Assembly (NCBI RefSeq): GCF_009914755.1
Contig: NC_060940.1
DNA length: 64,000 nt
Direction: 5' to 3' (one strand)
Source of the DNA: the human T2T-CHM13v2.0 reference genome, Homo sapiens
Below, piece after piece: positions 23,690 through 43,828 of the stretch. Made by a program: the position numbers and the translations under genes. The notes under the pieces were generated by a model that saw nothing but the letters and a program-made list of their open reading frames with translations, searched no databases and was not told the origin of the DNA. Each line of letters begins with the position of its first letter. Position 1 is the first letter of the stretch.

Positions 23690-24090
23690 ATTAGAAAACC
23701 CCACTGACAGTGACAAATAAAGGATTTATCACACAGAACAAGATATCCAGCAGTACACAGTCCAGGCCTGGTATAGCAAGCACTTAATTATGTTATCAGA
23801 GGCCCTGGGTCTTTTTTTTTTTTTTTTTTTTTTTGACCCCAACGTGATATGAGGTCTTTTAATCTTGCTGCTGTACCATGCTCATTGTGTGACTGTGTCC
23901 TCATTATTATGTTTGCAAGATGGCTGCTGCATCTCTGAGCACTGCATCAGTTCCTAAGAAGGTGGAATGGTGAAATGTCTCAAACTTTCTTGGAAGCCCC
24001 ATTAGGTGACTTGTGTTTCTGTCTCATTGGCTACAACTGAGTTACGTGGCCACCCCTTGCTGCAGTGAATCTAGGAAAGTGAGTAGTATT
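23690..24090. mobile_element. Old MLT1-type LTR remnant (host of the tRNA micro-insertion)
   Basis: gcaagatggctgctgca and gtctcattggctacaactgagttacgtggccaccccttgctgcag motifs. Confidence 0.6.
23816..23852 (-). pseudogene. Micro-retrocopy of tRNA-Trp(CCA) 3' end with poly(A) tail
   Basis: Minus strand TCATATCACGTTGGGGTCA then A-tail versus recalled tRNA-Trp 3' end TCAAATCACGTCGGGGTCA (17/19); TSD GGTCTTTT at 23808-23815 and 23853-23860; TTTT/AA site. Confidence 0.8.
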
Positions 24091-39229: not shown

Positions 39230-42731
<3,502 letters not shown>

Positions 42732-43715: not shown

Positions 43716-43828
43716 TTTTTTTTTTTTTTAATAGAGACAGGGTCTCGCAGTGTTGCCCAGGCTGGTCTCGAACTCCTGGCATCAAGCGATCCTCCTGCCT
43801 TAGCCTCCCAGAGTACTGGGATTACAGG
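43716..43828 (-). mobile_element. Antisense FLAM monomer within CBFB 3'UTR
   Basis: Alu left-arm consensus; TSD CTCTTTCTTTTT on both sides. Confidence 0.88.

What the first reader, a model, noticed from the sequence alone, without database searches (positions are those of the whole stretch)
23808..23860. Retrotransposed polyadenylated tRNA-Trp 3' fragment that may record m1A58 as a genomic mismatch
Seen: what looks like an orphan T23 run is GGTCTTTT-(T)n-GACCCCAACGTGATATGA-GGTCTTTT/AA. That is an 8-bp TSD, a canonical L1 endonuclease site (TTTT/AA) and, on the minus strand, TCATATCACGTTGGGGTCA followed directly by poly(A). Knowledge (recalled): human tRNA-Trp-CCA ends ...GTGTTCAAATCACGTCGGGGTCA, so 17/19 nt match positions 55-73. 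One mismatch (23841, C66>T) is CpG decay. The other (23849, A>T) sits at position 58, the m1A that stalls reverse transcriptases and causes misincorporation. There is no CCA, so the tail starts at discriminator A73. Inference: L1 ORF2p copied an adenylated, CCA-less but already m1A58-modified tRNA (a possible surveillance/decay intermediate), misread m1A58 and fell off about 3 nt later. An alternative reading is a stall at 58 followed by a jump to the tRNA 5' end (GACCTCGT>GACCTCAT, overlapping the TSD GACC). Both models put the discontinuity at position 58. Inserts this short may escape repeat annotation and could form a genome-wide archive of germline tRNA adenylation and modification.
Basis: partly seen in the sequence, partly recalled or inferred. 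Interest (0 to 1): 0.9.

Follow-up and report, generated by a model that had tools for sequence, protein, structure and literature searches.

The report
L1-inserted tRNA-Trp tail fragment
A 19-base copy of the end of tryptophan tRNA, with a poly(A) tail, was pasted into a CBFB intron by the LINE-1 machinery, and its one odd base sits where the tRNA carries a methyl group known to make copying enzymes err.

Summary
Window 23808-23860 reads GGTCTTTT, a T-run, GACCCCAACGTGATATGA, then GGTCTTTT/AA. This is an exact 8-bp target-site duplication at a TTTT/AA LINE-1 nick site. On the minus strand it holds a 19-nt insert followed by 18-22 A.

The insert matches positions 55-73 of tRNA-Trp-CCA at 17 of 19, ends exactly at discriminator A73 and has no CCA. 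None of the 8 tRNA-Trp loci in this genome encodes T58 or T66. No other locus matches with fewer than 2 mismatches.

The m1A58 idea gains partial, independent support. In a limited scan of 15 tRNA families I found four other LINE-1-type tRNA 3' copies. Two also carry T at position 58: a pre-tRNA-Trp/Alu chimera on chrX and a full-length tRNA-Gln copy on chr1. Two read A58 correctly. In four short copies, all 3 substitutions outside CpG sites fall at positions 57-58.

Two points remain unproven. The template may not have been an adenylated tRNA, because a template switch from a poly(A) tail fits equally well. The insertion's age and ancestral bases are unknown, because no primate genomes were available.

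Such inserts are rare: 4 poly(A)-tailed copies in 15 families. This is a new variant of a known kind, of moderate interest.

The parts
23808..23815 (+). Target-site duplication, upstream copy (GGTCTTTT). Its TTTT 3' end is the inferred primer for first-strand cDNA.
   Evidence: identical to 23853-23860; the only T-run in the window whose 8-mer key recurs at 18 nt.
23812..23833 (-). Poly(A) tail of the insert, seen as a T-run on the + strand. It is 18-22 A, depending on how many T belong to the duplication.
   Evidence: uninterrupted T23 at 23812-23834. The last T (23834) is the complement of discriminator A73.
23834..23852 (-). 19-nt copy of tRNA-Trp-CCA positions 55-73 (T-loop from U55, the 3' strand of the T stem, the 3' strand of the acceptor stem, and discriminator A73). 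No CCA.
   Evidence: 17 of 19 to the 3' end shared by 5 tRNA-Trp loci; no locus with 0 or 1 mismatch other than itself.
23849..23849 (-). Position 58: T where all tRNA-Trp loci have A. This is the site of m1A58.
   Evidence: One search gives the mismatch. A58 in 8 of 8 loci. The same A>T occurs in the chrX Trp fragment and the chr1 Gln copy.
23841..23841 (-). Position 66: T where 7 of 8 loci have C (the eighth has A). It is a C>T change within a CpG, consistent with ordinary CpG decay.
23853..23860 (+). Target-site duplication, downstream copy (GGTCTTTT).
23857..23862 (+). LINE-1 endonuclease consensus TTTT/AA at the reconstructed empty site.
   Evidence: On the minus strand it reads TT/AAAA, with the duplication starting at AAAA.

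Best explanation
LINE-1 ORF2p nicked the CBFB intron at GGTCTTTT/AA. It used the TTTT end to prime on an A-tract that lay directly 3' of discriminator A73 of a tRNA-Trp molecule that had been 3'-processed but not CCA-tailed. It then copied 19 nt (positions 73 down to 55).

At m1A58 it inserted dA instead of dT, which gives T in the sense strand. It terminated three bases later in the T-loop. The short cDNA was joined to the other side of the break, leaving an 8-bp target-site duplication. The C66>T change is later CpG decay.

Shown here: the anatomy, the source RNA, the absence of CCA, and the absence of a T58 gene. Inferred: that T58 arose during reverse transcription, and that the stop at 55 was polymerase fall-off rather than a pre-cut template. 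Left open: whether the A-tract was added to the tRNA itself, or belonged to another RNA from which ORF2p switched templates.
For: Anatomy.

Source:
- ARAGORN tRNA-Trp genes. There are 8 Trp loci; 5 share the exact 19-mer and the insert matches it at 17 of 19.
- The window 19-mer at up to 2 mismatches gives 18 hits against 21 for the reversed control. None has 0 or 1 mismatch except itself. Only the window copy is followed by a long A-run.
- Trailers of the 8 Trp genes are not poly(A).

Position 58:
- A58 in 8 of 8 Trp loci.
- chrX:135099449 holds TTCCTATCACGTCGGGGTCA, an 11-nt trailer-like piece ending TTTT and a full Alu 5' end, all inside one duplication (...AAAAATCATT). It has C57 and T58 and ends at 54-56.
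- chr1:178450400 is a full-length tRNA-Gln-TTG copy with CCA and an A tail. It has CTAT three times where the gene has AAAT at 57-60.
- In four short copies (97 aligned nt), the 3 substitutions outside CpG sites are at 58, 58 and 57.

From the literature:
- m1A causes both arrest and misincorporation (PMC4787781, abstract and passages).
- The OTTR RT misincorporates at position 58 and is impeded by m1A (PMC12140624, passages). That this enzyme is a non-LTR retroelement RT is my recollection, not something I read there.
Against: - Two of the five LINE-1-type copies read A58 correctly: chr9:124849681 Gly-TCC 55-76 with A12, and chr6:56163518 iMet 35-76 with A20.
- The sample is five events from a partial scan, and the window copy is the discovery case.
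- A crude test on 19-mer near-matches showed no general excess at 58: iMet 1 of 27 non-gene hits and Gln none. Most of those hits are probably chance matches.
- The ancestral base at 23849 is unknown, so a post-insertion A>T transversion cannot be excluded.
- The error spectrum of LINE-1 ORF2p at m1A has not been measured in anything I could find (0 papers).
- The start at 55 equals the 5' end of the 22-nt tRF-3b class (PMC9021294). The template may therefore already have been cut, and 'fall-off' may be wrong.
Confidence: 0.6

Rival explanations
1. Same LINE-1 insertion of a tRNA-Trp 3' end, but T58 is an ordinary post-insertion A>T mutation, or was copied from a lost or variant source allele. 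It carries no information on RNA modification.
For: - Only one non-CpG mismatch is at stake in the window.
- Two other copies read A58 faithfully.
- The 11-nt trailer of the chrX fragment matches no present tRNA-Trp gene, so a lost source gene with a variant T-loop is conceivable.
- No orthologues were available.
Against: - 0 of 8 Trp loci have T58.
- The same A>T recurs in a different tRNA, Gln on chr1.
- All 3 non-CpG substitutions in 97 aligned nt fall at 57-58.
- A58 is part of the internal promoter (B box; established knowledge), so a T58 gene would be poorly transcribed.
Confidence: 0.25
2. This rival concerns only the origin of the A-tract. The tRNA was never adenylated. ORF2p began on the poly(A) tail of its usual template (L1 or Alu RNA). 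While still in the tail, it switched to the free 3' end of a CCA-less tRNA-Trp precursor.
For: - The chrX chimera shows this kind of switch onto a Trp precursor 3' end, from the 5' end of an Alu RNA.
- Template switching is one of two mechanisms discussed for U6/L1 and the newly reported tRNA/L1 chimeras (bioRxiv 10.1101/2025.02.02.635956, passages).
- The known poly(A)-marked tRNA in surveillance is one lacking m1A58 (PMC4307339, passages). That fits poorly with a template that was both adenylated and m1A58-modified.
Against: - No L1 or Alu sequence lies between the tail and the tRNA. The switch would have to fall inside the A-tract.
- Three other copies have CCA followed directly by A-runs, a pattern equally expected from adenylated tRNAs.
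- Sequence alone cannot separate the two models.
Confidence: 0.4
3. This rival concerns only the 5' end. The template was already a short 3' fragment cut in the T-loop between 54 and 55, of the tRF-3b type. The start at 55 would then be the RNA's own 5' end, not polymerase fall-off after m1A58.
For: - tRF-3b are 22-nt species whose fourth base is A58 and carries m1A (PMC9021294, passages). The window insert begins at the same base.
- The chr9 Gly-TCC copy is exactly 55-76 with CCA and A12.
Against: - tRF-3b derive from mature CCA-bearing tRNA. The window copy lacks CCA.
- The chrX copy carries a precursor trailer, yet also ends at 54-56.
- Three similar 5' ends could equally reflect a polymerase stop in the T-loop.
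Confidence: 0.3
4. One reading: arrest at m1A58, then a jump to the tRNA's own 5' end. TCAT would then be positions 5-8 (TCGT with CpG decay), and the GACC of the duplication would overlap positions 1-4.
For: - 6 of 8 Trp loci begin GACCTCGT.
- The last four bases of the duplication are GACC, a 1-in-256 coincidence, or microhomology at the 5' junction.
- Both mismatches would then be CpG transitions.
Against: - GACC is present in both copies of the duplication, so it belongs to the target.
- TCAT fits positions 55-58 equally well (3 of 4).
- The chrX and chr1 copies show T58 in a context that continues into 54-56 or the T stem. A jump to the 5' end cannot produce that.
- It needs an extra step and an extra mutation.
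Confidence: 0.07
5. The insert is not from tRNA-Trp. It would be a severely 5'-truncated copy of some other transcript, for example the chr4:183844816 locus or a copy of an old interspersed repeat that contains a similar motif. Alternatively it was primed on the A-rich trailer of the chr17 tRNA-Trp gene, with later growth of the A-run.
For: - chr4 reads TCATATCACATTGGGGTAAAAAAG, 2 differences, with an A-rich continuation.
- chr21:18122385 carries the window's 15-mer exactly, inside an old repeat.
- The chr17:8127094 gene has the trailer AACAAAAC directly after A73.
Against: - Hits at 2-3 mismatches are at control level: 4 against 6 and 18 against 21.
- chr4 has no poly(A) signal in the 50 nt before the match.
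- The repeat motif is internal, and the chr21 copy matches only 16 of 19.
- A trailer origin needs loss of a C and growth to 22 pure A.
- Only the tRNA hypothesis explains why the match ends exactly at a natural RNA 3' end.
Confidence: 0.05

Closest known systems
Tailless tRNA-derived retropseudogenes (Schmitz et al. 2004 as cited in, and Noll et al. 2015 = PMC5322556; abstract and passages read)
   Same: - LINE-1-mediated insertion in trans of tRNA or pre-tRNA pieces.
- Target-site duplications and the LINE-1 target consensus.
- Unprocessed (CCA-less) tRNAs are among the templates.
   Different: - Those copies lack an A tail and are truncated at the 3' end in loops. This one has an intact 3' end at A73, an A tail of about 20, and is truncated at the 5' end.
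- Their screen required at least 30 nt (PMC5322556, methods passage), so a 19-nt insert would not have been caught.
tRNA/LINE-1 and U6/LINE-1 chimeric insertions (bioRxiv 10.1101/2025.02.02.635956; passages read, supplementary tables closed)
   Same: A small RNA is joined to a LINE-1-driven cDNA in a single retrotransposition event. Template switching or RNA ligation is invoked. The chrX Trp/Alu chimera found here is of this kind.
   Different: - Their 21 tRNA chimeras are mostly 5' halves (positions 1-37), antisense to the L1.
- The window insert is a 3' end in sense with the A tail, with no L1 or Alu sequence.
Retroviral primer-binding site and the plus-strand strong stop at m1A58
   Same: Reverse transcription of the 3' end of a tRNA, limited by m1A58. 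In this genome, tRNA-Trp 59-73 followed by CCA occurs at 5 loci with unrelated sequence from position 58 on. Similar families exist for Pro, Arg, Glu, Leu and Ile. The PBS being the 3' 18 nt is stated in the abstract of PMC11251516. The m1A58 stop is established knowledge, recalled here.
   Different: - Those sites include CCA, stop before 58, and lie next to an LTR.
- The window copy lacks CCA, passes 58 with an error, has an A tail and a LINE-1 duplication.
tRF-3b, 22-nt 3' tRNA fragments carrying m1A at their fourth base (PMC9021294; passages read)
   Same: Same 5' end (position 55), and the same base (A4 = A58) marked by polymerase misincorporation.
   Different: tRF-3b end in CCA and are RNAs found in Argonaute. 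Here the product is genomic DNA, without CCA.
TRAMP/exosome nuclear surveillance of pre-tRNA (PMC4307339; passages read)
   Same: It gives a known route to a 3'-adenylated, CCA-less tRNA precursor.
   Different: - The described substrate is yeast pre-tRNAiMet that lacks m1A58.
- The window copy, if T58 is an m1A mark, came from a modified molecule.
- Nothing here shows that this pathway made the tail.
Modification-induced misincorporation in tRNA sequencing (PMC4787781, PMC12140624, PMC8062790; abstracts and passages read)
   Same: The same logic applies: m1A58 is read out as arrest plus a mismatch in cDNA.
   Different: Those are laboratory polymerases and sequencing reads. Here the polymerase would be ORF2p and the read-out a heritable insertion.

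Membership tests
LINE-1 (ORF2p) target-primed insertion in trans | Target-site duplication flanking the insert | tested here: met
   An exact 8-bp GGTCTTTT lies on both sides. It is the only T-run in the window with its key 18 nt away.
LINE-1 (ORF2p) target-primed insertion in trans | Endonuclease consensus TTTT/AA at the reconstructed empty site | tested here: met
   GGTCTTTT/AATC on the + strand, and TT/AAAA on the insert's sense strand.
LINE-1 (ORF2p) target-primed insertion in trans | 3' poly(A) abutting the duplication | tested here: met
   18-22 uninterrupted A lie between A73 and the duplication.
LINE-1 (ORF2p) target-primed insertion in trans | Empty (pre-insertion) site in related species or haplotypes | not testable with these tools
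   No primate or other human assemblies were held. Paralogues of the flanks reach only 23978-24064.
tRNA-Trp-CCA-derived sequence | In-register match to the mature 3' end, better than to any other genomic sequence | tested here: met
   17 of 19 to positions 55-73, ending at A73. No hit with 0 or 1 mismatch elsewhere. 12 non-tRNA loci tie at 2 mismatches, which is at control level (18 against 21).
tRNA-Trp-CCA-derived sequence | Mature 3' CCA | tested here: not met
   A73 is followed directly by the A-run. The template was therefore not a mature tRNA, or had lost its CCA.
Tailless retropseudogene | No oligo(A) tail, and 3' truncation in a single-stranded region | tested here: not met
   An A tail is present and the 3' end is intact at position 73. 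Definition taken from PMC5322556.
Retroviral primer-binding site (tRNA-Trp) | 18 nt complementary to positions 59-76 including CCA, next to an LTR end | tested here: not met
   No CCA, and the match continues to 55. True PBS-like sites in this genome look different.
tRF-3b-derived copy | Starts at position 55 and ends with CCA (22 nt) | tested here: inconclusive
   The start at 55 is met and the CCA is absent. Definition taken from PMC9021294.
m1A58 reverse-transcription scar | Substitution at position 58 that is absent from all source genes and recurs in independent copies | tested here: inconclusive
   0 of 8 genes have T58. T58 is present in 3 of 5 LINE-1-type copies and A58 in 2 of 5. The ancestral state and the ORF2p error spectrum are unknown.

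The most novel reading that the evidence does not exclude
LINE-1 ORF2p leaves a reproducible scar when it copies m1A58: A58>T, often with 57>C, followed by termination or stuttering within a few bases. If so, the rare micro-retrocopies of tRNA 3' ends are heritable records of the modification state and 3'-end state of germline tRNAs. Those end states include CCA-less, trailer-bearing or CCA-plus-A molecules. The window copy would then show that a 3'-processed, not yet CCA-tailed tRNA-Trp already carried m1A58 and had an A-tract at A73.
Probability: 0.4. Interest if true: 0.75.

Novelty: new variant of a known kind. Interest (0 to 1): 0.6.

Why it matters
LINE-1 is known to copy tRNAs and other small RNAs into the genome, and m1A58 is known to stop or mislead reverse transcriptases. 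What has not, in the searches I ran, been put together is that germline insertions could preserve the polymerase's error at a modified base.

If that holds, three things follow:
- An in vivo error signature for ORF2p on a natural modified template.
- A way to ask which tRNA processing intermediates meet the LINE-1 machinery in the germline.
- A class of very short inserts that repeat annotation and earlier screens miss; one such screen required at least 30 nt.

The locus itself is an intronic T-run in CBFB with no sign of function. The value lies in the mechanism, not in the gene.

Tried and rejected
- **Rfam and ARAGORN on the locus** found no tRNA call, as expected for 19 nt. The five weak Rfam hits (E 0.7-5.7) lie outside the insert.
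- **Empty site from paralogous repeats.** BLAST of 23690-24080 against the genome gave 22 matches: itself, 19 that cover only the T-run, and two old-repeat matches to 23978-24064. A finer BLAST did not extend these to the insertion site.
- **Crude test for position-58 excess among 19-mer near-matches.** iMet gave 1 of 27 non-gene hits and Gln none. I judged this uninformative because most such hits are chance matches.
- **Tally of 'orphan' tRNA-like rows with a substitution at 58**, taken from the scan tables. I fetched four of them:
  - chr18:75036022 and chr10:43875097 look to me like MIR-type SINE sequence. This is recognised by eye and was not tested against a repeat library.
  - chr16:3351894 aligns over only 22 nt.
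  - chr10:64779635 is ambiguous.
  - I dropped the tally.
- **chr12:67692912** (Gly-TCC 59-73 with CCA, then AAAATG, with upstream TTTCCT) first looked like another C57/T58 case. Its context looks like an LTR/primer-binding-site junction, so it is not counted.
- **chr9:95925109 and chr8:1923432** (Trp 19-mer near-matches) have no tail, trailer or duplication and are treated as chance.
- **Pattern searches at 3 mismatches** were swamped by a tandem repeat.
- **Glu-CTC and Leu-CAG tables** were cut at 100 of 227 and 100 of 173 rows. Tailed copies there may have been missed.
Full report
**What is there.** The + strand of window 23800-23865 reads aggccctg GGTCTTTT, then further T up to 23834, then GACCCCAACGTGATATGA, then GGTCTTTT aatc. 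The T-run is 23 long (23812-23834). On the minus strand this reads TT/AAAAGACC, TCATATCACGTTGGGGTCA, an A-run, then AAAAGACC. The two 8-bp copies are identical and cannot be extended.

The reconstructed empty site is GGTCTTTT/AA, the LINE-1 endonuclease consensus. The geometry is that of target-primed reverse transcription. The upstream ...TTTT end is continuous with the oligo-T, which is followed by the complement of the insert. The site lies in an intron of CBFB according to the hub's gene table, antisense to the gene.

As a rough control I examined the 38 homopolymer runs of 12 or more in the window. The 4-nt+TTTT key recurs downstream within 450 nt for 8 of them, mostly at Alu distance, and in the opposite control direction for 5, mostly T-rich keys. 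Only this run has its key 18 nt away.

**What the insert is.** The window's genome could be searched. A pattern search found a near-match on chr17. ARAGORN calls it a tRNA-Trp(cca) gene (sequence). A BLAST with that gene found 8 tRNA-Trp loci.

- Their T-loops are TTCAAAT in 6, TTCAAGT in 1 and TTCGAAT in 1.
- All 8 have A at position 58.
- Position 66 is C in 7 and A in 1.
- None has T at either position.
- Six begin GACCTCGT.
- None has a poly(A) trailer.

The insert equals positions 55-73 at 17 of 19. The mismatches are at 58 (A>T, window 23849) and 66 (C>T in a CpG, window 23841). The match ends exactly at discriminator A73 and there is no CCA.

The window 19-mer at up to 2 mismatches has 18 genomic hits against 21 for the reversed control. 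None but itself has 0 or 1 mismatch. Five of the 17 two-mismatch hits are tRNA-Trp loci, and only the window copy is followed by a long A-run.

A random 19-mer would match the exact 3' end of one of roughly 100 distinct tRNA ends at 2 or fewer mismatches with probability about 6e-7. That figure is my estimate, and the number of distinct ends is recalled. I therefore take the source as tRNA-Trp with about 0.9 confidence.

Two look-alikes deserve mention:
- chr4:183844816 has two differences and an A-rich continuation, but no poly(A) signal. It sits among hits that are at control level.
- An old interspersed repeat contains ATCAC[G/A]T[T/C]GGGGT[C/T]A internally. Its chr21 copy matches the window's 15-mer exactly but only 16 of 19 overall, and not at an RNA end.

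**Is T58 a copying error at m1A58?** The window alone cannot say. It has one non-CpG mismatch, which would fall on position 58 by chance about once in 15-19 times. I therefore looked for other LINE-1-type copies of tRNA 3' ends.

For tRNA-Trp, the authentic 19-mer at up to 2 mismatches gives 11 hits: 7 genes and 4 others. The 15-mer for positions 59-73 at up to 1 mismatch gives 44 hits against 221 for a control that lacks CpG. I read the flanks of 20 of these and of others.

- Five loci carry 59-73 followed by CCA, with unrelated sequence from position 58 on. These are the 18-nt primer-binding sites of endogenous retroviruses, the classical case of reverse transcription stopping before m1A58.
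- chrX:135099449 reads TTCCTATCACGTCGGGGTCA, then ATGGGCATTTT, then a full Alu 5' end and the Alu with its short A tail. All of this lies inside one duplication...AAAAATCATT, which recurs after the Alu.

I read the chrX locus as a template switch from the 5' end of Alu RNA onto the 3' end of a pre-tRNA-Trp that still carried its trailer. The tRNA part ends at 54-56 and has C57 and T58. A read-through transcript from a lost Trp gene next to an Alu would give the same picture, because the trailer matches no present Trp gene.

I then scanned 14 further families, using the 15-mer for positions 59-73 with printed flanks and up to 1 mismatch. The families and calls were:
- Gly-TCC, Asp (41), Pro (42), Ser-AGA, Arg-TCG, Arg-ACG, Thr-AGT.
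- Ile-AAT, Gln-TTG, Ser-GCT, Gly-GCC.
- Glu-CTC (100 of 227 rows shown) and Leu-CAG (100 of 173 rows shown).
- iMet.

Many rows are retroviral primer-binding sites. Three further poly(A)-tailed copies appeared:
- chr9:124849681 is Gly-TCC 55-76 with CCA and A12, with an approximate 13-bp duplication. A58 is read correctly.
- chr6:56163518 is iMet 35-76 with CCA and A20. A58 is read correctly.
- chr1:178450400 is a full-length tRNA-Gln-TTG copy with CCA and an A tail. The gene's AAAT at 57-60 is replaced by CTAT three times, that is C57 and T58 plus a triplication at the site.

So T stands at position 58 in 3 of 5 LINE-1-type copies, from two different tRNAs, and the change AA>CT at 57-58 occurs twice. 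In the four short copies (97 aligned nt, 18 of them at CpG sites), the four substitutions at CpG sites are at 66, 56, 64 and 57. The three at non-CpG sites are at 58, 58 and 57, and nowhere else.

This is what a polymerase error at m1A58 predicts:
- m1A causes both arrest and misincorporation (PMC4787781, abstract and passages).
- The OTTR enzyme both misincorporates at 58 and is impeded by m1A (PMC12140624, passages). That it is a non-LTR retroelement RT is my recollection.

The evidence remains thin for four reasons:
- It rests on five events from a partial scan.
- Two copies are faithful.
- The window copy is the discovery case.
- The ORF2p error spectrum is unmeasured. My search for ORF2p, tRNA, m1A and template together found no paper.

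I put the probability that T58 in the window is a copying error at about 0.6.

**Where the A-tract and the 5' end came from.** The window copy is the only tailed copy without CCA. The other three have CCA followed directly by A.

That is possible. However, the described substrate of that pathway is pre-tRNA lacking m1A58 (PMC4307339, passages). The chrX chimera also shows that a Trp precursor 3' end can be picked up by template switching. A switch from inside the poly(A) tail of an L1 or Alu RNA would leave exactly the window's structure. I cannot separate these two models from sequence.

The 5' end at position 55 recurs in the window, in chrX (54-56) and in chr9 Gly-TCC. It equals the 5' end of the 22-nt tRF-3b class, whose fourth base is m1A58 (PMC9021294, passages). 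The template may therefore have been a pre-cut fragment, rather than the polymerase falling off. The chrX copy argues the other way, since it carries a precursor trailer and ends in the same place.

It draws on a real coincidence: the duplication ends in GACC, and 6 of 8 genes start GACCTCGT. It needs more steps, however, and it does not fit the other two T58 events.

**Comparison with what is known.** LINE-1-driven copies of tRNAs are known in two forms:
- Tailless, 3'-truncated retropseudogenes (PMC5322556).
- tRNA/L1 chimeras, mostly antisense 5' halves (bioRxiv 10.1101/2025.02.02.635956).

The window insert is neither. It has a tail, an intact 3' end and no L1 sequence, and at 19 nt it lies below the 30-nt floor of the earlier screen. 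It is not a primer-binding site. It works like a processed pseudogene of a tRNA 3' end.

In four literature searches I found no statement that genomic retrocopies record m1A58. These searches cover only the held open-access library, so this is not proof that the idea is absent from print.

**Verdict.**
- The source and the insertion mechanism are well supported.
- The m1A58 reading is strengthened by independent events but is not proven.
- The 'adenylated surveillance intermediate' and the 'archive' claims are weaker than stated. Such inserts exist but are rare: 4 tailed copies and 1 chimera in 15 families, under a scan that misses diverged copies.

The decisive tests are orthologue alignment, a full census and an ORF2p assay on native tRNA. 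None of these could be run here.

Noticed in passing
L022 (G000 chrX:135097949-135100967), about 1484-1765: A single LINE-1-type insertion inside an L1 poly(A) tail. It holds the tRNA-Trp 3' part (54/56-73, with C57 and T58), 11 nt ending TTTT (trailer-like, matching no present Trp gene), then a full-length Alu with internal deletions and a short A tail. It is flanked by ...AAAAATCATT on both sides.
   Followed up: partly
L089 (G000 chr1:178450320-178450520, minus strand): A full-length tRNA-Gln-TTG retrocopy with CCA and an A8GA5 tail. Positions 57-60 (AAAT) are replaced by CTAT three times. There are further gaps and changes in the D-arm region. No clear target-site duplication was seen.
   Followed up: partly
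L086 (G000 chr9:124849611-124849790): tRNA-Gly-TCC positions 55-76 (tRF-3b length, with CCA) plus A12, inserted in an Alu tail with an approximate 13-bp duplication. A58 is read correctly.
   Followed up: partly
L063 (G000 chr6:56163420-56163600): Initiator tRNA-Met 3' part from A35 to CCA, plus A20. It starts two bases 5' of position 37, and A58 is read correctly. No clean duplication was seen.
   Followed up: partly
L067, L068, L069, L081, L082 (chr11:60708147, chrX:70130540 and 70218080, chr19:24103348, chr19:30274076): tRNA-Trp 59-73 followed by CCA, with shared non-tRNA flanks. These are primer-binding sites of endogenous retroviruses that use tRNA-Trp. Large families of the same kind turned up for Arg-TCG, Pro, Glu-CTC, Leu-CAG, Arg-ACG and Ile.
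   Followed up: no
L066 (G000 chr9:130881071-130881225): An exact 15-mer of tRNA-Trp 59-73, with both CpGs intact, and no CCA, tail, trailer or tRNA-like upstream sequence. Unexplained.
   Followed up: no
L090 (G000 chr10:64779570-64779770, minus strand): A Gly-TCC-like 3' part (about 50-73) with T at 58, followed by a trailer-like GGAACTCATTT and an A-rich stretch. It may be another precursor copy, or chance next to a MIR-like element.
   Followed up: partly
L084, L075 (chr21:18122385, chr3:47281176): An old interspersed repeat contains a motif close to the tRNA-Trp 3' end (ATCACGT[T/C]GGGGT[C/T]A followed by ...TTCAACATA...). It is a trap for short-fragment tRNA scans.
   Followed up: no
window 41222-41239 and 43716-43729: Two other homopolymer runs whose 8-mer key recurs about 100 nt away. 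They may be short 5'-truncated retro-inserts. The second key is low-complexity.
   Followed up: no
window 23978-24064: An old interspersed repeat, 75-78% identical to copies on chr14 and chr2. It does not reach the insertion site.
   Followed up: no
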